Shown here piece after piece: positions 15,158 to 64,000 of a stretch of 64,000 nt of DNA. The first letter of the stretch is position 1. Each line of letters starts with the position of its first letter. The position numbers and the translations under genes were made by a program. The stretch lies in IMG/VR virus record IMGVR_UViG_3300017917_002560, positions 74,096-138,095 of that record; one strand, given 5' to 3'. The notes below the pieces were generated by a model that was given only the letters and a program-made list of their open reading frames with translations, was not told the origin of the DNA and searched no databases. The DNA comes from a virus. Lineage: Duplodnaviria; Heunggongvirae; Uroviricota; Caudoviricetes.

Positions 15158-16478
15158 ATTTCGACAACAAGTACTAGATACCAAAAGCGCCAGCTTTTGC
15201 GCAGCCAAGTGGTACAATGCTACAATATGGCTAGGGTCAGGAATGACCACTAGCTGTCACCATCCACCAGCTCATTTAGTGGACATTGATAAAGTTCAGA
15301 CTAACCCTAAGCTGTTGCACAACACGCCGCAGAAAAAAGATGATCGAAAGAAAATGTTGGCGGGAGAACGTCCCAGTGGTTGCGAATACTGCTGGAAGAT
15401 TGAAGACATGGGCCGTGATGCTATCAGTGACCGTGTGTATAAATCAAAAATTTACCCTATAAAGGCATTAGATGAAGCATACAATACACCAGTTGACGCA
15501 GACGTTAACCTCAAAACTCTCGAAATCGCATTTGATCGCACTTGCCAATTTGCTTGTAGCTATTGTAACCCTGCTTTCAGTAGCACATGGGTTAATGATA
15601 TCAAGCGCAACGGTCCTTATGAGCGTCTGGTGTCTGACGGGCGTAACCACTTTACTCACACTCACGATAGTGCTCAATTATACCGCTTTGGCGAAACTAA
15701 TCCGTACATTGAAGCGTTCTTTAAATGGTGGGAGTCAGACCTCCACTCAACCTTAGACGAGTTACGCATCACAGGTGGCGAGCCACTCATGAGTGGTTAT
15801 ACATGGCAACTGCTTGACTGGTTCCAAAACAATAGCGGACGATCAAAAACCCGGCTAGCTATTAATTCAAACTTGGGCATGGAGTTTGATGTTGTAGAAC
15901 GTTTGCTAAAATCAGCCAACGGTGTTGAATTAGACTTGTACACATCCAATGAAAGTTTTAGTGTTCATGCTGAGTATATTCGTGACGGATTAAGTTGGCC
16001 CCAGTGGGTTTACAATATGCGCAAAATCATGGGCTCTAAAAAGCTTCGTGGCTTGCATGTTATGTGTACTATCAACGCATTGTGCTTAGAAAGTTTGCCT
16101 GACTTCCTAGACCAACTCATGGTGTGGAAGAGTGAATACGGAACAGACTTTCCTAATTTCACTCTCAACATACTGCGCTTTCCAAGTTTCCAGTCTCCGC
16201 TGATTTTGCCTGACGAAATTAGAACACAGTACAAGGATAAGTTACAGCAGTGGCTGGATCGGTGGACCAACAACATTTCATTACAAGAACACGAACGCAA
16301 TCATGTACAGCGACTGATTGATTATCTTGACGTTGTTAAGACTCCCCACAGCGAAGCGTTTGACCGCCCTAAATTATTAAACGACTTTAAACAATTTTAT
16401 ACACAGTACGATCAACGTCGTGGCAAAAACTTTGCAGAAACATTCCCTACACTAGCCAACTGGTACAACACACTATGA
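15108..16478 (+). CDS. Radical SAM protein, paralogue 2 (CQFACSYC)
   Basis: CxxxCxxC; N-terminal CHHPPAHLVDID...LHNTPQKKDDRKKMLAGERPSGCEYCW nearly identical architecture to 12658; start may be 15144. Confidence 0.65.
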   Translation: MPYYLITLKNISMNDLEFRQQVLDTKSASFCAAKWYNATIWLGSGMTTSCHHPPAHLVDIDKVQTNPKLLHNTPQKKDDRKKMLAGERPSGCEYCWKIEDMGRDAISDRVYKSKIYPIKALDEAYNTPVDADVNLKTLEIAFDRTCQFACSYCNPAFSSTWVNDIKRNGPYERLVSDGRNHFTHTHDSAQLYRFGETNPYIEAFFKWWESDLHSTLDELRITGGEPLMSGYTWQLLDWFQNNSGRSKTRLAINSNLGMEFDVVERLLKSANGVELDLYTSNESFSVHAEYIRDGLSWPQWVYNMRKIMGSKKLRGLHVMCTINALCLESLPDFLDQLMVWKSEYGTDFPNFTLNILRFPSFQSPLILPDEIRTQYKDKLQQWLDRWTNNISLQEHERNHVQRLIDYLDVVKTPHSEAFDRPKLLNDFKQFYTQYDQRRGKNFAETFPTLANWYNTL

Positions 16479-18172
16479 ACATAACTCAACAATTAGACCA
16501 ACTAAGACAGCAGTACAATATTGTTGCTGTAATAGACTTGGACCCATGGTACGATACCCCTGACTATAAAAAGAAAAACTGGTTCCGTGACTTAATACAA
16601 CCAGTTTACAAAGAAGTATACGAAAACAACGACAGAATTGTTTTTACGCTAAGTCATGGCGACCGGTATGTTAGTGAAAACGATACAGCTGGCTATATCT
16701 TAACACAACTGCAACGAAGAATAAACGAAATTGATGTTAGCAATTTTTTTGTAACACTGTTAACCACTGATCAAACCCAAGCTGACAGTTATGCATCGGC
16801 ACTACCAATTATCAGCACAGATCCAGTACCTATTACAATAACAGTTTGCGAACCTCGAATCGAGCATAGACAATTATTCTCACCAAAAGCAGGATACAAT
16901 TACAACAGCAAAGACCCAATTAAAATTGATGTCAATGAGCTTGATGACAAGGAAAAGTTTCTTTTAACTGAGTCCAAACGTTTTTGTATGTTGCCTTGGA
17001 TACACATTCATGCCTACCCCAACGGTAAAACATACCCTTGCTGTGTTGGTGATATGCAGTTTCCAATTGGTGACATGCACACTCACACTATTCGCGAAAT
17101 CTGGAACCAAGCACCCATGCGAGAAATACGCCAAGCAATGTTGAGCGAAGCACCTGTGGATGCCTGTTCAAGATGTTACGAGCAAGAAGATGTTGGCTTT
17201 ATGAGTATGCGAAACAGTGCCAACAAGCATTATGGGCATCACATCAAACGAGTACACAAAACTAAAGAAGATGGCACACTGGATCAATTTGAATTAGTGT
17301 ACTGGGATATTAGATTCAGTAACTTGTGCAATCTACGTTGCCGTAGTTGCGGGCATATCTTTTCAAGCCAATGGTATCAAGATCAAGCTGAACTCAGTGG
17401 CCCAGACTGGAAAAAGACACACAAGGTGCTGAACTATGCTGGCCGTCACGAAATTGATGCATACGATCAGTTAGTTGAGCATTTGGATTATGTTGAACAA
17501 ATCTACTTTGCCGGCGGCGAACCGCTACTAATGGAAGAACACTATCGTATTCTCGACGAGCTAGTTCAACGCAAACGCTTTGATGTGCGTTTGATTTATA
17601 ACACAAACTTTACGCATACCGATCTCAAGGGCAAGTCGGTGTTTGAATACTGGAAACAGTTTGAGTCAGTTAGCATTGGCGCAAGTCTTGACGATATGGG
17701 CCCACGAGCAGAGTATATTCGCAAAGGTACCAACTGGGCAGTGGTTGAACAAAATCGTAAAGACATGATGGCAATTTGCCCCCAGGTTGATTTCTATATT
17801 AGTCCCACACTGAGTATCATGAACGCACTACACTTGACAGATTTTCATCGTGATTGGGTTGAAAAAGGATTAATCCGTGCGCAGGACCTAAACGTAAATA
17901 TCTTACAAGATCCTCCCTACTATAGAATTGACATCGCTACGTCTGACTATAAACAACAGATTGTTGAAAAGTTTCAAGCTCACATTGAGTGGCTCAAAGA
18001 TAAAGATCCGCTACAACGAGCCACAGTAGGGTTTGCATCTGCTATTAACTTTATCAACAACACTGATAACACACATCTTATTGAAACATTCTGGAAAAAG
18101 ACTGAAGAGCTTGACAGAATACGAAAAGAAAACATCCTGGATATTATTCCTGAGTTAAAGGCACTGAAATGA
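16475..18172 (+). CDS. Radical SAM protein, paralogue 3 with ~180-aa N-terminal extension (CNLRCRSC)
   Basis: CxxxCxxC at residues ~285; preceding CCVGD...C.RC Cys-rich module as in 18169 and 20368. Confidence 0.6.
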   Translation: MNITQQLDQLRQQYNIVAVIDLDPWYDTPDYKKKNWFRDLIQPVYKEVYENNDRIVFTLSHGDRYVSENDTAGYILTQLQRRINEIDVSNFFVTLLTTDQTQADSYASALPIISTDPVPITITVCEPRIEHRQLFSPKAGYNYNSKDPIKIDVNELDDKEKFLLTESKRFCMLPWIHIHAYPNGKTYPCCVGDMQFPIGDMHTHTIREIWNQAPMREIRQAMLSEAPVDACSRCYEQEDVGFMSMRNSANKHYGHHIKRVHKTKEDGTLDQFELVYWDIRFSNLCNLRCRSCGHIFSSQWYQDQAELSGPDWKKTHKVLNYAGRHEIDAYDQLVEHLDYVEQIYFAGGEPLLMEEHYRILDELVQRKRFDVRLIYNTNFTHTDLKGKSVFEYWKQFESVSIGASLDDMGPRAEYIRKGTNWAVVEQNRKDMMAICPQVDFYISPTLSIMNALHLTDFHRDWVEKGLIRAQDLNVNILQDPPYYRIDIATSDYKQQIVEKFQAHIEWLKDKDPLQRATVGFASAINFINNTDNTHLIETFWKKTEELDRIRKENILDIIPELKALK

Positions 18173-19380
18173 CAATACCACATGACAAGTTTTGCGTACT
18201 GCCTTGGATCAGCCTGGAAGCCAGCCCCATTGGTACTGTGCGTCCATGTTGCTTAGCCGACGATGAAATTGTAGACGATCATGGGGAGAAGTTTAGTTTA
18301 ATGACGGCTAACTTTTCACAAGTACAAAACAGCCAGCACATGCAGAAATTACGACAAGAATTTTTAGATGGCAAAAAGCCACAGACTTGCCGCAAGTGCT
18401 GGAACGAAGAACGCAGTGGCCGTACCAGCAAGCGCATGCATACGCTGAATAGGCTCAAGCACATTGTGGCAGATCAAACGTGGACAGCGGATGCCAAGCC
18501 CTTGATGTTCTTGGATCTTAAGTTAGGCAACATTTGTAATTTAAAATGTCGCATTTGCGGGTCGTGGAGTTCAAGCCAGTTTGCGACAGAAGAACTCAAT
18601 GATATGCCCATTGAAGCTGATAAGAAAACAACTTTTCCTTATCAAATGCTACGTGCCGGTGCATGGCCCAAAGAGAATCAACAATTCTGGGATCAAATTG
18701 ATCAGCATTTGAGCGACATTCGCTATATTGAATTCACTGGTGGTGAGCCTTTTATGATCAGTCAACACTTTGATATGTTGCAAGGTATCGTTGATCGTGG
18801 AATTGCACACAACGTAGAAATTCATTACAACACCAATGGCACAATGTTTCCAGCCCGCGGACCGGATATATGGCAACACTTTAAGACTGTGGAAATTGCA
18901 CTTAGTATTGACGACTTGGGTTCTAGATTTGAATATCAACGTAGCAATGCAGTATGGACAGAAGTGGTTGATAACTTGCGTCTATTCCAAGAATTGCGCA
19001 GCCGCATGTCCAACATTCAGTTGCAATGCTGTAGCACTGTAAACATATTCAATGTTCGTTACATTGACGAGCTTGCACGTTGGGTGGCACAACAAAATTT
19101 TGACTTTGTGTATTGGAATATGATGCACGATGCATGGTACTTCTCTATTGCTACGTTGCCTAACTCTGCCAAGACATTGCTTACACAGCACTTAGAATCT
19201 GCAGAAATACCACAACAGTATCAAGAAGAGTTTCAACGTATTGTTGATTTTATGAATCGTGGTGCAAGTACCGATGGATTTATGATGCGAATGAAAATAG
19301 CAGACTTAGATCGTAAGCGCAGTCAAAGCCTTGCTGACATCGAACCTGAGTTTGCTGAAATCATAGGATACACAAAGTAA
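18169..19380 (+). CDS. Radical SAM protein, paralogue 4 (CNLKCRIC)
   Basis: CxxxCxxC; N-terminal CCLADDE...CRKCWNEE module. Confidence 0.65.
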   Translation: MTIPHDKFCVLPWISLEASPIGTVRPCCLADDEIVDDHGEKFSLMTANFSQVQNSQHMQKLRQEFLDGKKPQTCRKCWNEERSGRTSKRMHTLNRLKHIVADQTWTADAKPLMFLDLKLGNICNLKCRICGSWSSSQFATEELNDMPIEADKKTTFPYQMLRAGAWPKENQQFWDQIDQHLSDIRYIEFTGGEPFMISQHFDMLQGIVDRGIAHNVEIHYNTNGTMFPARGPDIWQHFKTVEIALSIDDLGSRFEYQRSNAVWTEVVDNLRLFQELRSRMSNIQLQCCSTVNIFNVRYIDELARWVAQQNFDFVYWNMMHDAWYFSIATLPNSAKTLLTQHLESAEIPQQYQEEFQRIVDFMNRGASTDGFMMRMKIADLDRKRSQSLADIEPEFAEIIGYTK

Positions 19381-20387
19381 TGAGCCGGTTGGTTTTTATG
19401 TATTACCCTGGACACGAGCCCGAGCATCTAAGACGATTCTTGCCCAAAGGTTTCAAAATTGAAGTGTTTGATCCTATACAACAGTATCCAGCTGACACAG
19501 TGTTTTATTACGACATGTACGGTCCGTACGAAGATCACATTTTAATTCATTTGGATCAAGGATACAAGGTAGTGTACGATGCCAAAAACGAACACTATAT
19601 ACACTTTCGACGCCACTACATTTTTTACAGTTTCCTACAACATCCAGGTCAAGGATGTATTATTATTTCTGGTGACCGGCCTAACAACGTTCCCGGTGTT
19701 GACATTATTGCAACTCCATACTGGTACTGGATACTAGATCAAAAAAGTCTAATAGATAATGGTGTTGACCAACAAGTACGAACTTGGGACACCAACAAAA
19801 AGTTTTTTATGAGTCTAGGATTACACCGCGTAGAGCGCGACTACCTGTTTGATAATCTTGGTAATTTGTTAAATGACAGTTTGTACAGCTACCGTCATCG
19901 AGGAATGTTTCTCCCTGATGATGCGTCAATGGATGTAAATTGGCAACGGTATGTAAACCCTACATGGATGAACACTACTGCATTTACATTGGCTGTAGAA
20001 ACTTGTGTAATGGATGATGTCAAGTATGGATTCAGCCTGACGCTTGACGATAATCATTTTTTATGTGAAAAAACATACAAGCCCTTGGCAGCACAACATC
20101 CGTTGTTATTGGTGTCAACTCAAGGCAATTTAGCATACATGCGAAGTCAAGGGTTTGAGTCATTCCCTGAGTTGTTTGACGAAAGCTACGATAACATATC
20201 AGATTGGCAAAAGCGTATTGACCGTATCATTGAAATAGTTAGAGACTTTGATGTTGGTTTGGTAAACCAGCCCATTGTGCAAGAAAAAATAAAACACAAT
20301 CGAGATCATTTTTTTAACATTGATCTTGTAAATCAACTGGCACAAGACACTATTCAGCAACCTTTGTTTGAGTTCATCAATGGATAA
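19380..20387 (+). CDS. GT10-like glycosyltransferase-fold protein, paralogue 3
   Basis: HFLCEKTYKPLAAQHPLLLVSTQGNLAYMRSQGFESFPELFDESYD. Confidence 0.55.
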   Translation: MSRLVFMYYPGHEPEHLRRFLPKGFKIEVFDPIQQYPADTVFYYDMYGPYEDHILIHLDQGYKVVYDAKNEHYIHFRRHYIFYSFLQHPGQGCIIISGDRPNNVPGVDIIATPYWYWILDQKSLIDNGVDQQVRTWDTNKKFFMSLGLHRVERDYLFDNLGNLLNDSLYSYRHRGMFLPDDASMDVNWQRYVNPTWMNTTAFTLAVETCVMDDVKYGFSLTLDDNHFLCEKTYKPLAAQHPLLLVSTQGNLAYMRSQGFESFPELFDESYDNISDWQKRIDRIIEIVRDFDVGLVNQPIVQEKIKHNRDHFFNIDLVNQLAQDTIQQPLFEFING

Positions 20388-21687
20388 ACAAAAACCAGAC
20401 ACAATGTGCCTTGCCCCGTGGACGCACACATACCTATCGCCGCAGACCGAGCGACGATTATGCTGTGCGTCAAGAGAACCTGCACAAAACTTTCAGCAAT
20501 ACATTGATACTAAATCTGGTACTGGGCAATACATTCCCATTACACTAGAACAACACTGGAACAGCGATCACATGCGCAGTGTTCGTCGACGCATGATGGC
20601 CGGTGAAACACTGCCAGAATGTGATGTATGCAACAACAAATTGCTTAACACAGATGTGTATCGCGATTACTTTACACATTTGTTCCGTCACAAGTTACCA
20701 GAGATATTTGCATCTACTGCCGAAGATGGCAGTACAACAATGCAACCAGTGAGTTGGGATTATCGCTTCAGCAATTTGTGTAACTTCAAATGTCGCATGT
20801 GTGGCGATATGTTAAGTAGTAGTTGGGAAAGTGAACAACGCCAGCATAACATGATTAACTGGGCAGACTCAAAAAATAATTGGATGCTGCCAGCAGTGCG
20901 TAATCAAATATCGCAGTTTCAAGATCAACAAATTGAAGCAGAGTTTGCCAAAGCTGTAGAAGAACATCGTGTAGAGGAAATTTACTGGGTAGGCGGAGAG
21001 CCACTCATGTATGAACAGCACTGGCGCTACATGCAGAGGATCGTAGAACTAGGAGATGGACCACGTGTATATGCAAGATACAATACCAACCTTAGCAGAA
21101 TTGATTATCGGGGGTGTAACCTTTACAGCGATATTTTGGCTAATATACGAGATTGGCAAATTTGCGCAAGCCTTGACGGTACTGGAGCAGTTGGTGAGTA
21201 CATTAGAACAGGCCTTGACTACCAAACATTCTGCAGAAACTTTGAAGCTGGATTGCAACACCAACGCAATCGACGACAAATGCGACTAGACTTTACACTG
21301 ACATTGCCAGGCTTGTTTGAAGTAGAAGCCATGCAACAACTGGCCAATCGGTATGGCGTAGAAATGTTGGCCAAAGTAGTGTTTGGGTTCAGCCCAGACA
21401 TTGTAATGAGCCCATTGGCATTGCCAAGGTCAATCCTGGAAAGAAAAGTTCGTGAGCTATTGCCAATAACTACTGGTGCGATGCATGATGTGTTGCAACA
21501 ATTGTTGGCTCGTCCTACATTTGAAGAACAATGGCCTGACACTTACAGCAAAAGTATTGCACGTGGAAAGCAACGTATATTAAAGCTAGAAAGTATCAGA
21601 CAACAATCTATTACGTTTGAAGAAATTTGTCAACAGGATAAAGAAATTTATGAGTGGTGGAAAAATATTAGACCAGCTAACGATTAA
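20368..21687 (+). CDS. Radical SAM protein, paralogue 5 (CNFKCRMC)
   Basis: CxxxCxxC; N-terminal CCASREP...CDVCNN module. Confidence 0.65.
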   Translation: MSSSMDKQKPDTMCLAPWTHTYLSPQTERRLCCASREPAQNFQQYIDTKSGTGQYIPITLEQHWNSDHMRSVRRRMMAGETLPECDVCNNKLLNTDVYRDYFTHLFRHKLPEIFASTAEDGSTTMQPVSWDYRFSNLCNFKCRMCGDMLSSSWESEQRQHNMINWADSKNNWMLPAVRNQISQFQDQQIEAEFAKAVEEHRVEEIYWVGGEPLMYEQHWRYMQRIVELGDGPRVYARYNTNLSRIDYRGCNLYSDILANIRDWQICASLDGTGAVGEYIRTGLDYQTFCRNFEAGLQHQRNRRQMRLDFTLTLPGLFEVEAMQQLANRYGVEMLAKVVFGFSPDIVMSPLALPRSILERKVRELLPITTGAMHDVLQQLLARPTFEEQWPDTYSKSIARGKQRILKLESIRQQSITFEEICQQDKEIYEWWKNIRPAND

Positions 21688-46971: not shown

Positions 46972-48261
46972 TTAGTATCTGTATGTGTCGGGTTTGTATG
47001 GCCCGTCAACATTAACACTAATGTATGCGGCTTGTTCTGGGGTAAGAGTTGTGAGTTTTGCACCTACTTGAGCCAAGTGTAATCTAGCCACTTGCTCGTC
47101 AATGTGCTTGGGCAACAGATACAATTTGCCATCCTCATAACGGTCAGGATTGTTGTACAATTCAATCTGTGCCAATACTTGGTTGGTAAAACTGTTTGAC
47201 ATCACATAGCTGGGGTGTCCTGTGGCACAGCCCAGGTTTACCAATCTACCTTTGGCCAGCACAATAATCTTGGTGCCATTGCTGAGTGTGACATGATCCA
47301 CTAGCGGCTTGATCTCGTCCCAGTGGCAGTCTTTTAAGCCAGCAATGTCAATTTCGCTGTCAAAGTGACCAATGTTACACACAATGGCATTGTTTTTCAT
47401 TTGCAACATATGGTAGTGAGTGATAACATCAATGTTGCCTGTGGCAGTGACAAAGATATCGGCTTCACGACATGCTTCGTCCATTGTGACAACACGGTAT
47501 CCTTCCATGGCGGCTTGTAGAGCACAGATTGGATCAACTTCAGTAATCCAGACTTGCGCACTCAACGCACGTAGGGCTTGAGCAGAGCCTTTGCCCACAT
47601 CGCCATACCCGCACACCACAGCAATCTTGCCAGCAATCATAACATCAGTAGCACGTTTAATAGCGTCCACTAAGCTTTCTCTGCAACCGTACAAGTTATC
47701 AAACTTGCTCTTGGTAACTGAGTCGTTGACGTTGATAGCAGGCATTTTGAGGGTGCCGGCAGCTACACGTTCCAAGAGCTTGTGAATTCCTGTTGTAGTT
47801 TCTTCTGTTACACCAATAATGTCCGGTAGTAGATCTGGCCTGCGATCATGCACGTATGCAGTTAAATCATGCCCGTCGTCCAGCAACATGTTGGGGCGCC
47901 AACCATTAGCACCTTCCAGCGTTTGTTCAATACACCACCAGTATTCTTCTTCTGTTTCCCCCTTCCATGCAAACACAGGAATACCACGAGCGGCAAGTGC
48001 AGCCGCGGCATGATCTTGTGTAGAGAAAATGTTACAGCTTGACCAACGCACCTGGGCACCTAGGTCAATCAAAGTTTCTACTAGTACAGCAGTTTGAATA
48101 GTCATGTGCAAACTGCCGGCAATCCGAGCGCCTGCCAAGGGCTTCTGTCCAGCATACTCACGACGTACTGCCATGAGCCCAGGCATTTCACTTTCTGCAA
48201 TTAAAATTTCTTTGCGGCCCCAATCGGCCAGGGTAATATCTGCTACTTTATAATCACTCAT
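46972..48261 (-). CDS. ahcY: S-adenosyl-L-homocysteine hydrolase
   Basis: [19 protein letters not shown] start, NAD-binding [15 protein letters not shown], conserved HxTxQTAVLIETL-like block; ORF track start at 48375 lacks homology so start set at 48261. Confidence 0.8.
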
Positions 48262-48508
48262 TATCGGTCCATTTTTTAGTTTGGTCAAATCGTCGTTCTT
48301 GCATGGTGCGCTCTTTAAAGAATTTTCTAGGGTTGCCACACATTGCGCAATTTGAATCACCACATGTAGTGGCATGAATTTTACTTAGCCTATGTTCTGG
48401 GCCAGTGGGAAATCCGTGTGCTTTGGCAATACGTTTTTGCTTTTTTATTGCGGCTTCCTCGCGAAGAAGTCGGCGGCTGTGTTTAAAACGTTCAACTTGA
48501 TTGCTCAT
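48254..48508 (-). CDS. Hypothetical basic protein with [14 protein letters not shown] Cys cluster
   Basis: ORF downstream of promoter 48529. Confidence 0.45.
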
Positions 48509-51691: not shown

Positions 51692-53251
51692 TTAGGTCAA
51701 ATTTAATTGTGAATACAATGCCTGTTTGTATTCCTGAATTTTTTTCTCTTTTTTTAGAGTAACACTGTGCCAATCAAATGTACTGACTGATTGATTTATA
51801 ACAGTCTTGGGATCAATGCCTAGGCTACTCATGTACAGTACATCATTGCTTCTTACTTTTAACAAATCTCGTTTTATACTTTCTTGATGGTTCTGACTTG
51901 CTAACATTTTACACTCGTCAAAAGAAGTTAGATCGTTTTCCCATACCAATGACTTGAGCTCGTTGTCAAAGCCAGTTATCCTGTATCCGTATTTTTTGTA
52001 ATTTTTGTCAATGTCACTGCTGAATATCGCAGTTTTAGAAGACCTAATTATCAAGGGATGACAATACCAAACATCAAGTCCAGTTTCGTTATTAACAAGC
52101 TGTTCGTGAGTTTGTTTTATACTGTTGACATCTTCGTAAGGAAGCCCAAAAATAAATCCAGCATGCAACGTTACTGAATTACCGTATTGGTTTTTAATTT
52201 TTTTAACAGTTGCAATTAACTTTTCTCGACTACCGCCCTTGCCAATAAACGACCCAGCTTGTTTGTTAAACGTTTCAATGCCAAAGAAGTTTGCAATACA
52301 TCCGCTACCATACAAAAGATTTATGGTTTCAGGATCAGCAGCCAATAAATCTAGTCTAACATAAGCCCAATATTCTAACTTAAATGGTAGCTTTTTTGAT
52401 ATGTCGTAAATGGCTTGTAGTTTTTCCTTTGAGTCGTTAAATGTGTCGTCAGTAAACACATAACGTGTGGTTCCAAAGCGTTCGTAGTTGTCAATTAGTT
52501 CTGCATACAACACATCTGTGTGTTTGATGTAGTCATTTTTTTCTTGCCGTTTAACGGAAATGAACAGAACTTGCATTGAAAAATACAGCCGCGCCCAATT
52601 TCAATTGGAAGAGTTTCGTTGGGCAACACAATATCGTGTTCATGATATTTCATTTGTGTCCCAACAAAGTCGTAGCCTTTTGCAGTGGGGTCATCAATTA
52701 CAGTAAATTTAAACACACTCTTTCTACTGTTATTAAGAGCATCTCCAAATGCCAGGTGCCGTGCCAAATTGACAGCAGATATATCAGCTAGGCCCTGCAC
52801 AACATAATCGTAATCTGAATTGAAGTCAATGTCTTCTGCATCCGGTCCGCCTAGTACAATTTTACAATTAGGCGATATAGAACGAATCAGTTGTTTGATA
52901 ACTGTATTATATTTTTTTCCGTGGGGCAAAAAAGAACCGGATTCTTTAGGAGAGAATTTTATGCCGCCTTTTTCCCAGTGATTTTCGGCATTGTCAATTA
53001 TTTGTGCGTTATCTACTCCTTGATAAAAAATTGAATTGAATCCAATATACAAGGTTTTATCACTCACAGCAGAATTAAGTATTTGGATAATCTCTTCTAT
53101 AGAAAAAATATGTAAATGGTTGATCACCAACACTTCAAATCCTTCATTGCGCAGAGAATCAGCGACCTTGGTGACTCCCAATAGCCGTTGCAAAAACAGC
53201 GGATGACTGTAATCGGTCATCAGGATGATATTGTGCTTGGTTTTATCAAAC
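51692..53251 (-). CDS. Cobalamin-binding radical SAM protein, apparently split by a frameshift near 52495-52576
   Basis: Upstream ORF (52495..53251/53280) has B12-binding-like N-terminus and IGRGCIFQCKFCSF (CxxxCxxC); downstream ORF (51692..52576) continues rSAM fold; frames overlap 82 nt around an A/T homopolymer. Confidence 0.5.
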
Positions 53252-53296
53252 ATGTTAATATGTATATGCGTTTGAATCAAAAAAAATATTTATTGT

Positions 53297-55119: not shown

Positions 55120-55494
55120 TTACCTTACTGCTCGTGCTCGAGCATCAATTACATCATTCATGTCGCATTTGACAACGACATTAGTGTATGTATCAACAAA
55201 TCCGCTGGCATGATCTGTTACGCGGTTGTCGGGTTCGTGATATGTTCTAATACGTTCCTGCCCAGCAAGATACCGTTGTGTATCTTCGTGAAAGTGGGCC
55301 TGCACTCTGCTCAAACAAGTAATGTATGCCGCACGTCGATTGTCTTCTCGACTGCGACTGTTAGTACCATTGGCTTGAATGCCAGTGGGCTCGTGTATGC
55401 AACGGCAACAGTTTTGATGCTTGTTGCGATGCTGTCCGCCTTTTCCTGTGCCCGAGAACCACTCAAAGCGGAATTGGTCTTCTGTGATTTTCAT
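55120..55494 (-). CDS. RF-1/ArfB-like GGQ-domain peptidyl-tRNA hydrolase
   Basis: SGTGKGGQHRNKHQNCCRCIHEPTGI matches class I release factor/ArfB GGQ domain (SGxGGQHVNK...HxPTGI). Confidence 0.65.
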   Translation of the reverse strand: MKITEDQFRFEWFSGTGKGGQHRNKHQNCCRCIHEPTGIQANGTNSRSREDNRRAAYITCLSRVQAHFHEDTQRYLAGQERIRTYHEPDNRVTDHASGFVDTYTNVVVKCDMNDVIDARARAVR

Positions 55495-55502
55495 GGCATT
55501 CC

Positions 55503-55883
55503 TTACAGTAGTGGTAGAGTGCCTGTAACAGCGTCTACGCGGTCTTCACGGTCTGGGCCAACAGCAACGGCGGTATAGGTTTTTACACCACCAAACTCTG
55601 TGAGCCCAGCGTCTTGGATTAAGCTAGCAACAAGTCCTGCCGCTAGTGCCTGATTGTGTATGGCCAACAGCTCTTGTTCACTGTTGACATATACACAGAT
55701 TTTTTTAAAACGTCCTGTAAGCCAAGGGCGCACACGATCGTCCATTTTTAATTCCAGCATGTCATTCTTTACTTGACACAGACCTAGGATAGCACCCATG
55801 GAGGCATGAGCACCTTGTGCTACCATTTTGCCTTTGCGCATGTTTAAATCTTTGCGTAACACTATGACTTGTTTGTGTTCCAT
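55503..55883 (-). CDS. PTH2-family peptidyl-tRNA hydrolase
   Basis: KQVIVLRKDLNMRKGKMVAQGAHAS resembles PTH2 N-terminal block. Confidence 0.65.
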   Translation of the reverse strand: MEHKQVIVLRKDLNMRKGKMVAQGAHASMGAILGLCQVKNDMLELKMDDRVRPWLTGRFKKICVYVNSEQELLAIHNQALAAGLVASLIQDAGLTEFGGVKTYTAVAVGPDREDRVDAVTGTLPLL

Positions 55884-56058: not shown

Positions 56059-56150
56059 TGGTACTCCCGGGGAGAGTCGAACTCCCATTAGCGGCTTATC
56101 TAGCACTTACCCGTTATAAGCGGGCCGTTTTACCATTAAACTACGGGAGC
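56059..56150 (-). tRNA. Class II tRNA (89 nt) with apparent anticodon UAU; isotype unclear
   Basis: Good acceptor, D arm gttt/taccatt/aaac, T arm; 22-nt variable region; anticodon loop cuuauaa. Confidence 0.4.
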
Positions 56151-57761: not shown

Positions 57762-57837
57762 TGGAGCGGGTAGCGAGATTCGAACTCGTCTCTTGAGGTT
57801 TGGAAGACCGCCGTGCAACCGTAAACACTTTACCCGC
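57762..57837 (-). tRNA. tRNA-Gly(UCC)
   Basis: Anticodon loop cuuccaa, U73 discriminator, perfect acceptor gcgggta/tacccgc. Confidence 0.6.
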
Positions 57838-58131
57838 ATCTTAGTGAAACACTCTAAAGGTTTTCTTCCCGGGACCCAGATCCACCTTAAACTGGTCGAT
57901 GTTTTGTAGAATGTTTCATTAAGATGTTTAGCTACTCTCACCACAAGAGCCCTAAACTGGGTGGTTACCCCGTCCACGTTCTTTTCCATTTAGACGGGCA
58001 ATCGTCCCCGCCTTTGTGATTTCTCAAGTCGCCCATGTAAGCGGGCCTTGCAGTAGATCCAATGCACTGTGTCTTTTATGGTACAGACAATTGACCCCCG
58101 TTTACTAACGGCTACGGGATGCCGGGTTGTT

Positions 58132-58239: not shown

Positions 58240-58713
58240 TCAAGCATTTGCAACCTTTAATCCACGCATACGGTCAGCGGCATAGCTTGCGGCAAATGCG
58301 TCGGGCTTGACCATGGGAATAATGTTGCAAGTGCCTCGAATGTAACCAATGGCTTGTGCAATGACATTTGAACTCTTGTGCATATCGTTGGGGTTTAAGT
58401 CCAAATGCACTTCAACATGTCGTCCTTCAAGGACATCGGCTAATTTTAGATACAGTTCGCTGACTTTGTAAACTTCAGTCATCAAACGTGTGTTGGGTTT
58501 GTCAACTCGATCGTAATCGCGTTCTTTGGTAATCTCACCAAACAGTTTGCAACCATTGTTACCATTGACGTGAACAACGATGGCGGCTGTGTAGTAGGCC
58601 CAAAACTCTCCTCCGATCTTTACACGTTCGCTATCGCAACCAAGATACACACGAGTATCTGGGCTTTGTGCTAGAATAAATTCACGCACTACATCAATGT
58701 CAAACTTCTTCAT
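58240..58713 (-). CDS. Hypothetical protein (start MKKFDIDV)
   Basis: ORF between tRNAs; longer N-terminus to 58767 unlikely. Confidence 0.45.
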   Translation of the reverse strand: MKKFDIDVVREFILAQSPDTRVYLGCDSERVKIGGEFWAYYTAAIVVHVNGNNGCKLFGEITKERDYDRVDKPNTRLMTEVYKVSELYLKLADVLEGRHVEVHLDLNPNDMHKSSNVIAQAIGYIRGTCNIIPMVKPDAFAASYAADRMRGLKVANA

Positions 58714-58734
58714 GATTACCTCTCGTAAAAATCT

Positions 58735-58808
58735 TGGCATCCCACCAGGGACTCGAACCCCGACCAACGGTTTTGGAGACCGCTATGCTGCCATTACACC
58801 AGCGAGAT
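58735..58808 (-). tRNA. tRNA-Trp(CCA)
   Basis: Anticodon loop cuccaaa, D arm gugu/aauggca/gcau. Confidence 0.6.
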
Positions 58809-58962: not shown

Positions 58963-59037
58963 TGGTGGTAAAGGTGAGATTCGAACTCACACCGGGCACC
59001 GTATGAAGGTGTTGCACAACCATTATGCTACTTTACC
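58963..59037 (-). tRNA. tRNA-Met or Ile2 (CAU), second elongator-type copy
   Basis: Anticodon loop uucauac, perfect acceptor ggtaaag/ctttacc. Confidence 0.55.
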
Positions 59038-59160
59038 ATATAAAAACATTTTCAATTTCAGTTCAATGCTGGCACAAAGAACCTTTCGCCACTGCCAGGT
59101 GACCGAAGAGATTACTCGCTCTAATTGCGAGGTCTGTCCGTCAAAAATGTTTTTATATGG
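59036..59160. repeat. 17-bp perfect inverted repeat (ccatataaaaacatttt / aaaatgtttttatatgg) enclosing a 91-nt hairpin-rich spacer between two tRNAs
   Basis: Arms 59036-59052 and 59144-59160; right arm includes CCA of tRNA-Lys, left arm abuts 5' end of tRNA(CAU). Confidence 0.7.
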
Positions 59161-59235
59161 TAGGAGCACTGGGATTCGAACCCAGACCTGGCGGATTAAA
59201 AGTCCGCTGTGCTAAACCGTTGACACTATACTCCC
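59158..59235 (-). tRNA. tRNA-Lys(UUU)
   Basis: Perfect anticodon stem gcgga/tccgc, loop cuuuuaa. Confidence 0.65.
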
Positions 59236-59622: not shown

Positions 59623-59698
59623 TGGGGTGTCCAACCGGTATCGATCCGGTACTACCGCTTTCACAGAGCAGTGTGCAGGCCACTACACTATGGACACC
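59623..59698 (-). tRNA. tRNA-His(GUG) with encoded G-1 and C73
   Basis: Anticodon loop cugugaa; extra 5' G opposite C73; T loop AUCGAUA. Confidence 0.65.
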
Positions 59699-59867
59699 AT
59701 TGATAAATTTGAGTAAATGCTACAGGATTCGAACCTGTACCTGCGTCCGCCTTCGCCGCTTACTAAGTCTGCAAACTTTTCGTCGGGTACTACCTTCTGC
59801 TGTGCTTGCCAGTACACCACGCAACCTGTCATAGTTCATTGCAGTGCCCTATGAGCAGTCTCAAAAT

Positions 59868-60087: not shown

Positions 60088-60900
60088 GGTCCTTGCGCTG
60101 TCTAGAATTGGCAAGTATTTCAGTTGTTCCGCTGTAGCTACTACACAAGCAAAATTACTATTCTGAAACACACTATGCCACGCTTTGAACCTGGACTCTT
60201 AGTAATGTGTTTTAGAATAGTGCTAACGCTGAGATTACACGTTAGCCATAAGCACCTCTAGCATTATAGTCCGCCTTGCGAGCAAACCTTCTCTAGACAT
60301 CCACATAAGCCCTTGCGGTACCTACGTCTGCTTACAGCATCGCCGTTTTTAAAGACAGGCAGTAGTCTTGTCGCCATATGCTATTCTACGCTATCTACTC
60401 CGTTGACCTTGCGAGCCATTCACAGTCGCTAAACCGTTACGAAACTTCCAGCATAAACCAATTTCACCTTGCGAGCTACGTTGGACTTGATTCACTTGCG
60501 TGTCAAGTATTAGATGCTTTTCACATATGACCGAGTCAGTCTTTGCATTTTATTGTTAGAAGGAGTCGAACCTTCAGTCTATTCTTTAACAGAGAATTGG
60601 CCTACCATTAGCCTATAACGAACCTACTGCGATGTGCTGACTCAGTTGCCGCATACTCTTTTGGAATACACGATACAACACACCACGTACCTTTTGCCTC
60701 GCGAGCTACTCAGTAGTCTTTCGCGACCAATGTAACAACGTTTCGCAACGTGTCCCATCAACCACTAAAACTGCATACAAGCCCTTGGGAGCGACCCCTC
60801 GGACACGTACACTACCCTTTCTCATACCAGTTGACTGATTGGTTTGTATGGAAGTCAGCACCACCTGTTACTTTTCATTGCCCCGTGTTCCTTGCGGCAC
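60088..60900. repeat. Dispersed copies (>=8) of CCTTGCGAGC-like motif in ~1.1-kb noncoding stretch
   Basis: Copies at ~60090, 60274, 60311, 60415, 60475, 60697 (palindromic CCTCGCGAGC), 60783, 60890; irregular spacing. Confidence 0.55.
60551..60622 (-). tRNA. tRNA-Asn(GUU)-like, probable pseudogene (two acceptor mismatches, no CCA)
   Basis: Good T arm, anticodon arm attct/ttaacag/agaat, D arm; acceptor 5/7. Confidence 0.35.
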
Positions 60901-61276
60901 GTCGAACAATGTTCTTTCCTCATACATCAGCTTCGCTGTTACATCCACCGGTCTTATCAGTGAACGCTACCTCACGGTAGTGAGCAGGCTTGTCTAAACA
61001 GACCATTACTGGCGGAGTTATGTAGGCATACCTCCTTTGGCTGTGTCACCACAGTTATCTTTCATACACGGCAAGCCGTGTATAGGATGTTAAACCACCC
61101 TTGAAATCTTTTGTCTAATAGACATACTACTGCACACTCACAGGAATCGAACCTGCCAACCACACCAATGGGCGAAGCTGTTTCCGCAACATCGGCCTGC
61201 GCATTTAGCCTTTGTGTGCATGAGTATATCTACTATTTTTTAAAGAACGCTTTAGTTAATTTCTAACTAAGCATGT

Positions 61277-61305
61277 ATTGTAGCATCACATGAATAATGT
61301 GTCAA
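61277..61305 (-). promoter_or_regulatory. Early sigma70 consensus promoter TTGACA-17-TACAAT at head of tRNA/noncoding block
   Basis: gtggTTGACAcattattcatgtgatgcTACAATac. Confidence 0.55.
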
Positions 61306-61306
61306 C

Positions 61307-61382
61307 CACAAAGACCTGGTACACCGTATGGGAATCGAACCCATCTTACCAACGTGAAAGGCTGGTGTCCTAAACCGATAGA
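61307..61382 (-). tRNA. tRNA-Glu(UUC)
   Basis: Anticodon loop cuuucac. Confidence 0.55.
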
Positions 61383-61559
61383 CGAACGGTGCATTGTATA
61401 GGTTTTTGAGAGCCTAACTATCCTCCTGGGAGGACTCGCTAGATTGTCTCGAATAGTCAAGTTTAACCAACCGACTTCAGTCATACTGTAGTGTCAACAC
61501 AGTCAACCCCACTGTGCCTAGACTGGCAGGGACTCTAAACTATCGTCTATCTCAAAACT

Positions 61560-62173: not shown

Positions 62174-62248
62174 TGGTGGAGACCGAGGGAGTTGAACCCT
62201 TCTAGACATTGTGCCTGCCAGGCGCAACCGTAGCCCGCTACTGCCCCC
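62174..62248 (-). tRNA. tRNA-Ala(GGC)-like, aberrant fold (possible pseudogene)
   Basis: T arm and G3:U70 acceptor present, anticodon loop cuggcag, but D arm/variable region do not fold canonically. Confidence 0.35.
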
Positions 62249-62332
62249 ATTAATGAAGCGTACTAGACTGGATCGCCCATCACCTAGTCCAGACGGTGTA
62301 CGTATATGCGAATTAGTACGCTTCATTAATGG
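62247..62332. repeat. 19-bp perfect inverted repeat (ccattaatgaagcgtacta / tagtacgcttcattaatgg) enclosing a 48-nt hairpin-forming core between two tRNA-like genes
   Basis: Arms 62247-62265 and 62314-62332; right arm contains CCA of downstream tRNA-like gene; inner gactgga/tccagac sub-hairpin. Confidence 0.7.
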
Positions 62333-62408
62333 CTCCGAGTATGAGAATCGAACTCATCTAACCATTGATTAACAGTCAAGCCCATGCACCTTGCTCGGGT
62401 TTCTCGGA
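62330..62408 (-). tRNA. tRNA-like gene with Asn-type loop (cuguuaa), degenerate D arm and acceptor
   Basis: Perfect T arm atgag/aatcgaa/ctcat; other arms poor. Confidence 0.3.
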
Positions 62409-62416
62409 ATAGAAAT

Positions 62417-62571: not shown

Positions 62572-62799
62572 ACAGAAATGAATTTGAGAGTTGTGCCACC
62601 ATCGTTATTGGCACCATTCACCTATTTGCATAAAGCCCGGGCTAGGACTCGGTACGTTACTTGAGATTCATCCAGCCTGTGTGCCATCAGACACCCTGAT
62701 CTTCCGATCAGTCGGGCCTCGAACCCGCGACCTTTTACTATATCAGTAGTTCGAACATACCTTTATAGCGTGATTTCACTTGCTAACACTCTCAAAACT

Positions 62800-62889
62800 T
62801 GGTGGATGCGGTAGGAGTTGAACCTACACAGTCTTATTTGTATGCGGGCGGGTTACAGCCGCTTGAGCTCGCCAATGCTCAGCACATCC
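62800..62889 (-). tRNA. tRNA-Tyr(GUA), class II
   Basis: Anticodon loop cuguaac, long variable arm, D stem gagc/gctc. Confidence 0.6.
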
Positions 62890-63146: not shown

Positions 63147-63223
63147 TGGCGCACCGTAGGGGACTTGAACCCCTGGCCTCATGCGTGACAGGCATGCGAT
63201 CTAACCAACTGATCTAACGGTGC
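63147..63223 (-). tRNA. tRNA-Asp(GUC)
   Basis: Perfect anticodon stem catgc/gcatg, canonical loop cugucac, perfect acceptor. Confidence 0.65.
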
Positions 63224-63809
63224 GTAATCTTCCTTTGACCCAACCATCTGGCATAGGGTCAGTTTGTTTAATCTTGCGTTCGTGTGTGTTATTATTGATC
63301 CACATCGAACCTAAATTTACTTGCTTTGCTCGATTAGAAAGTTCTTGCTGTAAAACAGAATCTTTGAATACGCTAACTCTGCCATTTGCGTATTGCTGTT
63401 TGTTTAGAGCAGATTTTCTCTCCGATTCGGCATTGCGAAATTCTTCGTCGTTTTCAAGTCGGGATGCGTATGTTTGGCCGCCTTTGAGGTATTGCTTGGC
63501 TTTGTTGTTTTGTCCTGTTTTGTTTAGGTAATCAAAACCGCCTGAGCCACCGCGACGCAAATTATACACATCATCACGCGATAAAAAGTCTTCGGTTACA
63601 ACTTCTTTTTCACGCTTGAACATTTCATCGCTATTCTCAAAAATTTCAAGAATAGTCTTCTCAAAGTTTTCAATGCCATGCTTGTTGATAGCGGCACGTA
63701 TTACTTTACCTGAACCCATGTAACCATCATTCATGTCAGATGTTTTATGAACTCCGACATAAATTTTGCCATTCACTTTGTTTTTGATTTGATACATGTA
63801 GTAAAACAT
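63201..63809 (-). CDS. GIY-YIG homing endonuclease
   Basis: N-terminal YMYQIKNKVNGKIYVGVH...YMGSG GIY-YIG motifs; 3' end overlaps 5' part of tRNA-Asp by ~23 nt. Confidence 0.7.
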   Translation of the reverse strand: MFYYMYQIKNKVNGKIYVGVHKTSDMNDGYMGSGKVIRAAINKHGIENFEKTILEIFENSDEMFKREKEVVTEDFLSRDDVYNLRRGGSGGFDYLNKTGQNNKAKQYLKGGQTYASRLENDEEFRNAESERKSALNKQQYANGRVSVFKDSVLQQELSNRAKQVNLGSMWINNNTHERKIKQTDPMPDGWVKGRLRTVRSVG

Positions 63810-63885: not shown

Positions 63886-63969
63886 AGACCAAATTGGTGT
63901 ACGTTACGGGATTCGAACCCGCACCTCAAGGTTTTTAGGCCCTGCGTCGTGATGCCCTAACATTTTGAC
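63886..63969 (-). tRNA. tRNA-like gene (G3:U70 acceptor, class II length), isotype unresolved
   Basis: T arm acggg/attcgaa/cccgc and acceptor pair; interior not folded confidently; a further tRNA 3' end appears to begin at 63976 and runs off the window. Confidence 0.35.
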
Positions 63970-64000
63970 CAAACGCACATAATTGGTGGAGTGTAGCAGA

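What the first reader, a model, noticed from the sequence alone, without database searches (positions are those of the whole stretch)
59036..59160. Perfect 17-bp inverted repeat clamps the spacer between tRNA-Lys and tRNA(CAU); a 19-bp one does the same at 62247-62332
In both cases the right arm includes the encoded CCA of one tRNA and the left arm abuts the 5' end of the next. In the minus-strand precursor a long perfect duplex therefore forms directly between the two tRNAs, around a 48-91 nt hairpin-rich core. Stems of this length are RNase III substrates, so these look like dedicated processing cassettes for the polycistronic tRNA precursor, or the loops are small stable RNAs released by processing, as with T4 species 1/2 RNAs. 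A weaker 9-bp version flanks 62583-62797. Perfect conservation of 17-19 bp in noncoding DNA argues for selection.
Basis: seen in the sequence. Interest (0 to 1): 0.65.

Follow-up and report, generated by a model that had tools for sequence, protein, structure and literature searches.

The report
Stem-clamped small RNAs in phage tRNA array
The two inverted repeats are the closing helices of small structured RNAs lodged between tRNA genes of a huge uncultured phage, and they belong to an apparently undescribed family found in more than 120 viral contigs, in which a nearly invariant 19-base-pair stem encloses very different RNA cores.

Summary
Both inverted repeats are perfect 19-mers. Each starts at the CCA of one tRNA(-like) gene and ends in the first bases of the next.

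They are not isolated. The 59034-59162 element has nine homologues in IMG/VR contigs. Across these, the long stem and three inner hairpins keep pairing through compensatory changes.

The same arms (ACCAUAUAAAAACACAUU / AGUGUGUUUCUAUAUGGU) enclose dozens of unrelated cores in at least 120 viral contigs. These cassettes always lie in tRNA arrays and always in the tRNA sense. They most often follow tRNA-Lys(UUU) and end at position -1 of tRNA-His or tRNA-Met.

Most copies carry a conserved A·C mismatch at stem position 9, so the window's perfect copies are atypical. Two more copies in the window (60157-60221 and 57837-57926) were missed for that reason.

G·U outnumbers A·C 177 to 68 inside the helix, which points to pairing in the sense RNA.

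No Rfam family, ribozyme, Y RNA, T4 rnaC/rnaD, terminator or promoter fits.

Best reading: a conserved processing or recognition helix that packages exchangeable small RNAs cut out of the tRNA precursor. RNase III involvement is plausible but untested, and what the cargo RNAs do is unknown.

The parts
59158..59235 (-). tRNA-Lys(UUU); its A73-CCA (59158-59161) forms the first four pairs of the clamp helix
   Evidence: ARAGORN; Rfam tRNA 59.9 bits; sequence
59141..59162 (-). Cassette 1, P1 5' strand (UACCAUAUAAAAACAUUUUUGA)
   Evidence: Perfect 19-nt inverted repeat; 22-bp P1 in MFE; covariation
59056..59140 (-). Cassette 1 core. P2 59104-59140. P3 59088-59103 with loop CUGGCA (59093-59098). GAAA linker. 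P4 59060-59083 with loop UGCCAG (59069-59074).
   Evidence: Alignments A1 and A3 of 8-10 homologues. 53 pairs, 90.7% paired, 15 pairs with changes on both sides, 0 of 500 shuffles reach this. CM R1 scores 158 bits on the sense strand and 30 bits on the antisense strand.
59034..59055 (-). Cassette 1, P1 3' strand (UUGAAAAUGUUUUUAUAUGGUA); its last 4 nt are G1-A4 of tRNA-Met
58963..59037 (-). tRNA-Met(CAU) directly 3' of cassette 1; its RNase P site coincides with the end of the helix
   Evidence: offset statistics
62330..62412 (-). tRNA-like gene (anticodon loop CUGUUAA, atypical D region) whose CCA opens cassette 2
   Evidence: Rfam tRNA-Sec 26 bits; conserved in 24 distinct loci
62247..62332 (-). 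Cassette 2. Arms CCAUUAAUGAAGCGUACUA / UAGUACGCUUCAUUAAUGG around a 48-nt core. A divergent member of the same arm family. It ends in G1-G2 of tRNA-Ala(GGC) (62174-62248).
   Evidence: L132 has, in the same slot, a cassette with intermediate arms (CCAUUAUAGAAGCACAU / AUGUGUUUCUAUAAUGG) and compensatory differences.
60157..60221 (-). Third family member, directly 3' of the GOLLD RNA. Arms ACUAUUCUAAAACACAUUAC / AUAGUGUGUUUCAGAAUAGU, with the family's A·C mismatch at position 9.
57837..57926 (-). Fourth family member. Arms CAUCUUAAUGAAACAUUCUA / UAGAGUGUUUCACUAAGAUG with an A·C mismatch. It ends at G1 of tRNA-Gly(UCC).
62583..62797 (-). It is a different arm type. The same 'CCA-AGUUUUGAGA ... 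UCUCAAA' frame recurs at 59698-59867 and 61393-61559.

Best explanation
The inverted repeats are the closing helices (P1) of small non-coding RNA cassettes. These are co-transcribed with the tRNAs of a huge uncultured phage.

Each cassette is a 19-22-bp AU-rich helix of nearly fixed sequence: 5'-ACCAUAUA(A)AAACACAUU / AGUGUGUUU(C)UAUAUGGU-3'. It usually carries an A·C mismatch at position 9. It encloses a GC-richer core of 30-100 nt that differs from cassette to cassette.

The helix begins at the discriminator-CCA of the upstream tRNA, mostly tRNA-Lys(UUU). It stops at position -1 of the downstream tRNA, mostly His or Met.

What is shown:
- The helix and the core of cassette 1 are under selection for pairing in the sense RNA.
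- The arms are more conserved than the neighbouring tRNA.
- The cassettes occur only inside tRNA arrays and only in the tRNA orientation.
- The cargo is highly diverse.

What is inferred:
- Ordinary tRNA maturation frees a hairpin-capped small RNA: RNase P at the 3' border and 3'-end trimming of the upstream tRNA at the 5' border.
- The invariant helix serves as a sequence-specific processing or recognition module, for an RNase III-type or other dsRNA-binding factor, and as protection against exonucleases.
- The exchangeable cores are the functional payload.

Tandem cassettes have no tRNA between them, so separating them needs a cut within or between helices.
For: Covariation:
- Cassette 1 family: 53 pairs, 90.7% paired, 15 pairs with changes on both sides, 0 of 500 shuffles as good.
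- P1 in an unbiased tRNA-Lys slot set of 35 sequences: positions 1-8 and 10-19 pair in about 100% of copies. 10 pairs show double changes. 0 of 500 shuffles reach this.

Same arms, different cores:
- CM R1 finds about 40 further hits of 28-47 bits. They share the arms only.
- 83 unique cassettes fall into 56 core clusters.
- At least 120 IMG/VR contigs carry exact arms.

Sense-strand RNA:
- Inside the helix G·U outnumbers A·C 177 to 68. Just outside it the counts are 172 to 189.
- 280 stems are found only when G·U is allowed (sense) against 129 only when A·C is allowed (antisense).
- R1 scores 158 bits on the sense strand and 30 bits on the antisense strand.
- Sigma-70 consensus promoters lie on the minus strand. 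There is no promoter or terminator in the cassettes.

Geometry:
- Stem starts peak 4 nt before the upstream tRNA's 3' end (157 of 467 stems).
- Stem ends peak at -3 to +3 of the next tRNA's start (142 of 467).
- The offset is -1 for tRNA-His and -2 for tRNA-Met.

Array restriction: 72 of 72 cassettes lie within 500 nt of a tRNA, although 62% of the sequence searched does not.

Conservation and composition:
- Arms stay about 90% identical even where tRNA-Lys is only 60-80% identical.
- Cores have 51% GC against 44% background, and a mean folding z of -0.6 against -0.2 in controls.

Compensated slot homologue of cassette 2.
Against: - There are no expression or end-mapping data.
- No nuclease or binding protein has been identified. 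No RNase III signature occurs in the 2.4 Mb held at that point, the window plus the array-flanking loci.
- Most cores are singletons in this sample. They diverge to random-level identity (0.48-0.51), like the unconstrained flanks. Their folding z-scores are only modestly negative. Many cores could therefore be filler.
- The conserved A·C at position 9 would be a G·U in an antisense transcript.
- A single-stranded DNA hairpin on the sense strand would show the same G·T asymmetry.
Confidence: 0.58

Rival explanations
1. Pure processing hairpins. Only the long duplex matters. It is an RNase III (or similar) site that cuts the polycistronic precursor between tRNAs or helps tRNA-Lys 3'-end formation. 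The enclosed loops are unselected filler.
For: Arms are about 90% conserved, while cores are at random-level identity even between phages with identical tRNA-Lys and tRNA-Met. Helix length is constant at 19 bp, a size suitable for RNase III (established knowledge). Core length varies freely from 30 to 100 nt.
Against: Cassette 1's core is conserved at 81-92% in contigs whose flanks no longer align. It has three covarying hairpins and two invariant loops. Several other core families recur in different phages and different tRNA slots. Cores are GC-enriched. Most adjacent tRNAs in these arrays are separated by only 5-9 nt without any hairpin, so a hairpin is not needed to separate tRNAs.
Confidence: 0.2
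2. A DNA-level element. The arms are terminal inverted repeats of a small mobile element, or a folded single-strand recombination site (attC-like), that inserts at tRNA gene borders and shuffles cargo or tRNA genes.
For: Conserved terminal repeats with variable interior. Presence/absence polymorphism at the same slot. The same cassette is found between different tRNA pairs, and cassettes occur in tandem. A GIY-YIG homing endonuclease and an RNase H-like-fold protein are encoded in the array.
Against: - Arm changes are compensated cassette by cassette within one genome, rather than shared by all copies.
- G·U is in excess on the transcribed strand.
- Orientation relative to the tRNAs is fixed, and all copies lie in tRNA arrays.
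- No target-site duplication is visible at filled versus empty slots.
- No near-identical dispersed copies exist within a locus.
- There are no integron R-box motifs, and no transposase or integrase was found among the array ORFs tested.
Confidence: 0.1
3. A tRNA-centred regulatory device. The helix sequesters the CCA end of tRNA-Lys(UUU), Glu(UUC) or Gln(UUG) and the 5' end of the next tRNA. This would time or protect their maturation, for example against host nucleases that attack these tRNAs.
For: The upstream tRNA is Lys(UUU) in 85 of 157 clamped stems, Glu(UUC) in 29 and Gln(UUG) in 6. The helix pairs with A73-CCA and with G1-G2-U3 of the next tRNA.
Against: Many cassettes have no tRNA on one or both sides, including the copy after GOLLD and the tandem copies, and they keep the helix with non-CCA sequence. 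The tRNA bias may simply be inherited gene order.
Confidence: 0.07

Closest known systems
Phage T4 species 1 and 2 RNAs (rnaC, rnaD) in the T4 tRNA cluster
   Same: Small stable RNAs of about 120-140 nt, encoded on the tRNA strand directly next to tRNA genes of a phage (annotation). They are presumed to be cut from the same precursor. Their function is unknown.
   Different: There is no sequence or model similarity. R1 gives no hit on rnaC or rnaD, and its best score in the locus is 15 bits elsewhere. The predicted folds lack a long closing helix: rnaC has a short acceptor-like stem plus a T-arm, and rnaD folds no better than its shuffles, z = -0.8. T4 has two fixed RNAs, not a family with common arms and variable cargo.
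RNase III processing stems of bacterial rRNA operons and phage T7 RNase III sites (e.g. R1.1) (own knowledge)
   Same: Inverted repeats flanking a mature RNA in a polycistronic precursor form a duplex of about 20 bp or more. T7 sites share a consensus and carry an internal mismatch or loop that shapes cleavage.
   Different: Cleavage by RNase III is untested here. The helix sequence is conserved across distantly related phages far more strongly than RNase III is known to require. The enclosed RNAs are 30-100 nt and interchangeable.
tRNA-spacer-derived functional RNAs such as E. coli 3'ETS-leuZ, and gammaherpesvirus MHV68 tRNA-pre-miRNA chimeras (own knowledge)
   Same: Functional small RNAs or hairpins fused to a tRNA and released by the tRNA-processing machinery.
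   Different: They come from other organisms and use other enzymes (RNase E; tRNase Z plus Dicer). They have no shared conserved clamp helix and no array of exchangeable cargos.
Bacterial and phage Y RNAs (YrlA; Chen et al. 2014, PMC4201824)
   Same: RNAs of 80-130 nt whose 5' and 3' ends form a long stem carrying a protein-binding site. The other half is a variable or tRNA-like module. Some are phage-encoded.
   Different: The arms have no GGUCCGA-like Ro60 motif. There is no Rfam Y RNA or YrlA hit. No TROVE/Ro60 gene was found among the 30 window ORFs scanned.
GOLLD / ROOL ornate RNAs of phage tRNA islands (Kretsch et al. 2025, PMC12286853)
   Same: Structured non-coding RNAs of unknown function residing in phage tRNA islands. 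A bona fide GOLLD (207.7 bits) lies in this same array at 60226-60686, and a cassette abuts its 3' end.
   Different: GOLLD and ROOL are 400-800-nt RNAs with their own conserved folds. The cassettes are about 65-130 nt, have no Rfam match, and are defined by a shared closing helix.

Membership tests
Any Rfam 15 family (including HDV-like, hammerhead, twister and hatchet ribozymes, Y RNA/YrlA, tmRNA, T-box) | Match to the family covariance model at or near its gathering score | tested here: not met
   (13 kb, E<=1): only tRNAs, GOLLD and weak tRNA-Sec hits. (cassettes alone, E<=10): only chance hits of 9-17 bits to miRNA or CRISPR models.
RNase III processing stem | Continuous dsRNA of about two helical turns (roughly 20 bp or more) formed by sequences flanking a mature RNA | tested here: met
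   19-22-bp P1; helix length conserved at 19 bp.
RNase III processing stem | Staggered cleavage by RNase III in vivo or in vitro; products altered in an rnc mutant | not testable with these tools
   No RNA-end data. No RNase III signature motif (E[RKQ]LE[FWYL][LVIM]GD) in the 2.4 Mb held at that point, the window plus the array-flanking loci. A host enzyme is not excluded.
T4 rnaC/rnaD stable RNAs | Sequence or structure homology to T4 rnaC or rnaD | tested here: not met
   no R1 hit on L329 1409-1672; cultured phages match only at tRNA level; the folds differ.
T4 rnaC/rnaD stable RNAs | Encoded within a phage tRNA cluster on the tRNA strand | tested here: met
Y RNA / YrlA | Ro60-binding motif (GGUCCGA-like) in the terminal stem and an adjacent Ro60 (TROVE) gene | tested here: not met
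   Arm consensus is ACCAUAUAAAAACACAUU. No TROVE domain among the 30 window ORFs scanned. Motif definition taken from PMC4201824.
MITE / TIR transposon | Terminal inverted repeats | tested here: met
MITE / TIR transposon | Dispersed near-identical copies, target-site duplications, cognate transposase | tested here: not met
   72 of 72 copies lie inside tRNA arrays. Cores differ within a locus. No duplication at filled versus empty slots. No transposase domain in array ORFs.
Integron attC site | R''/R' core sites (RYYYAAC / GTTRRRY) and a nearby IntI integrase | tested here: not met
   Read directly from the arm sequences: no such boxes. No integrase among the ORFs scanned.
Intrinsic terminator / sigma-70 promoter | GC-rich hairpin followed by a U tract; or -35/-10 hexamers | tested here: not met
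   none of the listed terminator-like or promoter-like sites falls in 59034-59162, 62247-62332, 60157-60221 or 57837-57926.
Proposed new family: stem-clamped tRNA-array cassettes | 19-bp closing helix with consensus ACCAUAUA(A)AAACACAUU / AGUGUGUUU(C)UAUAUGGU, in tRNA sense, inside a tRNA array | tested here: met
   59034-59162 matches the consensus, with A-U instead of A·C at position 9. 60157-60221, 57837-57926 and 62247-62332 are compensated variants.

The most novel reading that the evidence does not exclude
These phages run a modular 'RNA cassette' system. An unidentified sequence-specific reader recognises the invariant 19-bp helix with its A·C mismatch. It excises or loads a repertoire of exchangeable small RNAs that act in the phage-host arms race as decoys, sponges or anti-defence RNAs. 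The cargo of the window's cassette 1 would assemble into multimers through its two invariant, mutually complementary hairpin loops (CUGGCA / UGCCAG). The 4-nt linker makes it unlikely that these loops pair within one molecule, so the arrangement would resemble phi29 pRNA or the GOLLD/ROOL assemblies.
Probability: 0.15. Interest if true: 0.85.

Novelty: new variant of a known kind. Interest (0 to 1): 0.68.

Why it matters
Phage tRNA islands are usually treated as codon-usage or anti-defence tRNA reservoirs. GOLLD and ROOL are the only well-known non-tRNA RNAs there, and their function is unknown. This analysis shows that the islands of a large group of uncultured huge phages also hold many small structured RNAs in one standard 'package'. 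That package is a helix conserved more strongly than the tRNAs beside it.

This gives three things:
- A simple signature for finding hundreds of new phage small RNAs.
- A defined RNA element whose reader protein or nuclease can be sought.
- A testable model of how non-tRNA RNAs are released from tRNA precursors.

If the cargos turn out to be host-directed or anti-defence RNAs, it would be a new layer of phage-host conflict.

Tried and rejected
- Rfam, on 13 kb and on each cassette alone: nothing.
- Self-cleaving ribozymes next to tRNAs (HDV-like/theta, hammerhead): no model hit and no core motifs.
- Y RNA: the motif and the Ro60 gene are absent.
- T4 rnaC/rnaD: fetched and folded; unrelated.
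- Megablast and blastn against 50,697 cultured-phage records: only tRNA-level matches.
- Bacterial and archaeal genomes: one hit, on a 1.5-kb contig binned to a Ca. Planktophila MAG. This is probably a phage fragment or a host hint.
- Promoter or terminator reading of the arms: rejected.
- RNase III signature motif in six-frame translations of the 2.4 Mb of sequence held at that point: none. This is inconclusive, because only pieces of each genome are held.
- PF04308 RNase H-like neighbour as candidate partner: no PDB relative, and its PHROG has unknown function. Its co-occurrence cannot be separated from conserved gene order.
- 'Hypervariable cargo' claim: withdrawn. Flanking non-tRNA DNA is as diverged as the cores, so replacement and fast drift cannot be told apart.
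- A 14-mer scan (AAACATTTTTGACG) was too unspecific.
- Literature searches found no description of this element. The library is incomplete.

Full report
**Observation.** The window carries at least 39 tRNA genes, all on the minus strand, between 51.6 and 63.3 kb. The repeat finder reports two perfect 19-nt inverted repeats:
- 59034-59052 / 59144-59162, with 91 nt between the arms.
- 62247-62265 / 62314-62332, with 48 nt between the arms.

For the first repeat, read in RNA sense, the helix starts at U72-A73-CCA of tRNA-Lys(UUU). It ends in G1-A4 of tRNA-Met(CAU).

The second repeat starts at the CCA of a tRNA-like gene (62330-62412) that ARAGORN misses and that Rfam scores weakly as tRNA-Sec. 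It ends in G1-G2 of tRNA-Ala(GGC).

Both regions fold into long closed stems far better than shuffles, with z = -6.0 and -5.0. The first repeat is 19 nt long, not 17.

**Relatives.**
- No cultured phage matches beyond the tRNAs.
- The PF04308 RNase H-like protein encoded 270 nt downstream (58240-58767) served as an anchor. It retrieved 80 IMG/VR loci from huge phages, with contigs up to 364 kb.
- Cassette 1 has homologues of 77-92% identity in six of these and related contigs. Later searches raised the set to ten sequences including the window.
- The neighbours differ between contigs. Upstream is tRNA-Lys, or no tRNA called by ARAGORN. Downstream is tRNA-Met, tRNA-His or neither.

**The cassette 1 RNA is real.** On the ten-sequence alignment the structure has a 21-bp P1 and three inner hairpins.
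- 90.7% of cells are paired and 15 pairs show changes on both sides.
- 0 of 500 column shuffles reach this. Sliding the partners drops pairing to about 42%.
- In L081 and L083 no tRNA is called immediately upstream of the element. There the base of P1 reads ACUU...AAGU instead of ACCA...UGGU. The helix is what is kept, not the CCA.
- The covariance model scores 158 bits on the sense strand and 30 bits on the antisense strand.
- The P3 loop (CUGGCA) and the P4 loop (UGCCAG) are invariant and complementary, while both stems covary. This invariance cannot be tested by covariation.

**The key result: same arms, different cores.**
- Searching the model over 85 sources gave about 40 further hits of 28-47 bits. 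Inspection showed the same arms around unrelated cores.
- A census found 83 unique cassettes in the first 87 loci plus the window. They fall into 56 core clusters.
- The same pattern hit one 1.5-kb contig among 185,579 bacterial and archaeal genomes.
- Tandem cassettes occur, separated by only 1-3 nt.

**The helix.** I built an unbiased set from the slot after tRNA-Lys(UUU). It was anchored only on the terminal UGGU and holds 35 distinct sequences.
- Positions 1-8 and 10-19 pair in 91-100% of copies. Pairing then decays.
- Ten pairs show double changes, with 0 of 500 shuffles as good.
- Position 9 is non-standard in 33 of 35 copies, and it is A·C in 173 of 253 cassettes overall.
- The window's two perfect repeats are therefore the exception.
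- Two further members in the window carry the mismatch and were missed for that reason: 60157-60221, directly after GOLLD, and 57837-57926, ending at G1 of tRNA-Gly.
- Cassette 2 is a divergent member. In L132 the same slot (tRNA-like gene -> cassette -> tRNA-Ala(GGC)) holds arms intermediate between the consensus and the window's, with compensated differences. Other loci have an empty slot of 5-9 nt.

**RNA or DNA?**
- With strand-neutral selection, G·U outnumbers A·C 177 to 68 inside the helix, positions 9 and 17 excluded. In the five positions just beyond it the counts are 172 to 189.
- Generic long stems are nine times more frequent than in shuffles (553 against 62).
- 280 unique stems are found only when G·U is allowed (sense) against 129 only when A·C is allowed (antisense).
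- All cassettes share the tRNA orientation.
- All 72 cassettes in the independently retrieved set lie within 500 nt of a tRNA, though 62% of that sequence does not.
- Consensus sigma-70 promoters sit on the minus strand. None lies in a cassette, and no terminator-like site does either.
- Arm variants are compensated cassette by cassette within one genome. That argues for intramolecular pairing rather than two ends read by one protein.
- A DNA-level element is not excluded, but it is the weaker reading.

**Geometry and mechanism.**
- Stem starts peak 4 nt before the upstream tRNA's 3' end. Stem ends peak at -3 to +3 of the next tRNA's start.
- For tRNA-His and tRNA-Met the RNase P site falls exactly after ...CUAUAU. 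Normal tRNA maturation would thus release a nearly blunt hairpin-capped RNA. This step is inference.
- Adjacent tRNAs elsewhere in these arrays need only 5-9 nt between them. The hairpins are therefore not needed just to separate tRNAs.
- Arms stay about 90% identical even where tRNA-Lys is only 60-80% identical. That calls for a sequence-specific reader, which I could not identify.
- RNase III is a reasonable candidate from helix length and from the T7 precedent of mismatched consensus sites (own knowledge). Nothing here tests it, and no RNase III motif occurs in the 2.4 Mb held at that point, the window plus the array-flanking loci.

**The cargo.**
- Cores are GC-enriched (51% against 44%) and fold slightly better than controls (mean z of -0.6 against -0.2).
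- Several core families recur in different phages and in different tRNA slots.
- Most cores, however, are at random-level identity even between phages with identical flanking tRNAs, and so are the non-tRNA flanks. I therefore cannot say whether cores are swapped or simply drift. Some may be filler.

**Comparison with known things.**
- No Rfam family fits.
- T4 rnaC and rnaD share only the location.
- Y RNAs share the long terminal stem, but not the Ro60 motif or gene.
- rRNA and T7 RNase III stems share the logic.
- GOLLD and ROOL share the habitat. A genuine GOLLD with an embedded tRNA-Asn lies in this very array, as described for some GOLLDs in PMC12286853.
- My literature searches found no description of these cassettes.

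**Verdict.**
- The broader finding is a widespread family of stem-clamped cassettes that I could not find described in the literature available to me.
- Their function and their processing enzyme remain to be shown.

Noticed in passing
window 60226-60686 (-): Full-length GOLLD RNA (Rfam RF02032, 207.7 bits, E = 6e-58) with tRNA-Asn(GUU) (60551-60622) embedded in its linker. A stem-clamped cassette follows 4 nt after its 3' end.
   Followed up: partly
window 62330-62412 (-), 62804-62889 (-), 63898-63978 (-): Three tRNA-like genes that ARAGORN does not call. The first has an Asn-type anticodon loop (CUGUUAA) and an atypical D region, and is conserved in 24 distinct loci. The second scores 32 bits as tRNA-Sec. 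The third scores 39.9 bits as tRNA in Rfam.
   Followed up: partly
window 59698-59867, 61393-61559, 62572-62803 (-): Three other tRNA spacers are conserved non-coding elements, with 72-94% identical homologues in several to many loci. Each opens 'CCA-AGUUUUGAGA' and closes 'UCUCAAA', but their cores are unrelated. This may be a second, shorter type of closing stem. AGUUUU is also a common trailer after CCA in short spacers.
   Followed up: partly
window 60623-61316 (-): A roughly 700-nt ORF-poor gap between the GOLLD/tRNA-Asn region and tRNA-Glu. It folds very stably (-242 kcal/mol) and contains a T-arm-like GGUUCGAUUCC. There is no Rfam hit.
   Followed up: no
related loci: The tRNA immediately upstream of a clamp helix is Lys(UUU) in 85 cases, Glu(UUC) in 29 and Gln(UUG) in 6, out of 157. 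By my own knowledge these three are the tRNAs that carry the xm5s2U34 wobble modification and are frequent targets of anticodon nucleases. The bias could also be inherited gene order.
   Followed up: no
window 58240-58767 (-): A PF04308 'RNaseH_like' protein (175 aa; phrog_11311, function unknown; no PDB relative) sits next to the cassette region. It has 315 relatives in IMG/VR, almost always in these tRNA arrays.
   Followed up: partly
window 55120-55883, 51692-53280, 63201-63809 (-): Proteins embedded in the tRNA array: PTH2 peptidyl-tRNA hydrolase, an RF-1-domain (ArfB-like) protein, a radical-SAM plus B12-binding pair, and a GIY-YIG homing endonuclease.
   Followed up: no
window 12658-21687 (+), 46972-48375 (-): Five consecutive radical-SAM/SPASM ORFs, plus an S-adenosylhomocysteine hydrolase further on. 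This suggests a peptide- or cofactor-modification cluster in the phage.
   Followed up: no
window 61985-61957, 54534-54506, 51609-51581 (-): Three perfect 12/12 sigma-70 consensus promoters (TTGACA-17-TATAAT), and four 11/12 ones, all on the tRNA strand inside the array. They imply several host-polymerase transcription units.
   Followed up: no
L208 (CAZQNP010000058.1): The only hit to the arm pattern among 185,579 genomes is a 1.5-kb contig binned to a Candidatus Planktophila MAG (a freshwater actinobacterium). It is either a mis-binned phage fragment or a hint at the host.
   Followed up: no
window 56059-56150 (-), also L076 745-836, L030 9252-9343: tRNA-Ile(UAU) is consistently 92 nt long, which is unusually long for a class I tRNA.
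   Followed up: no
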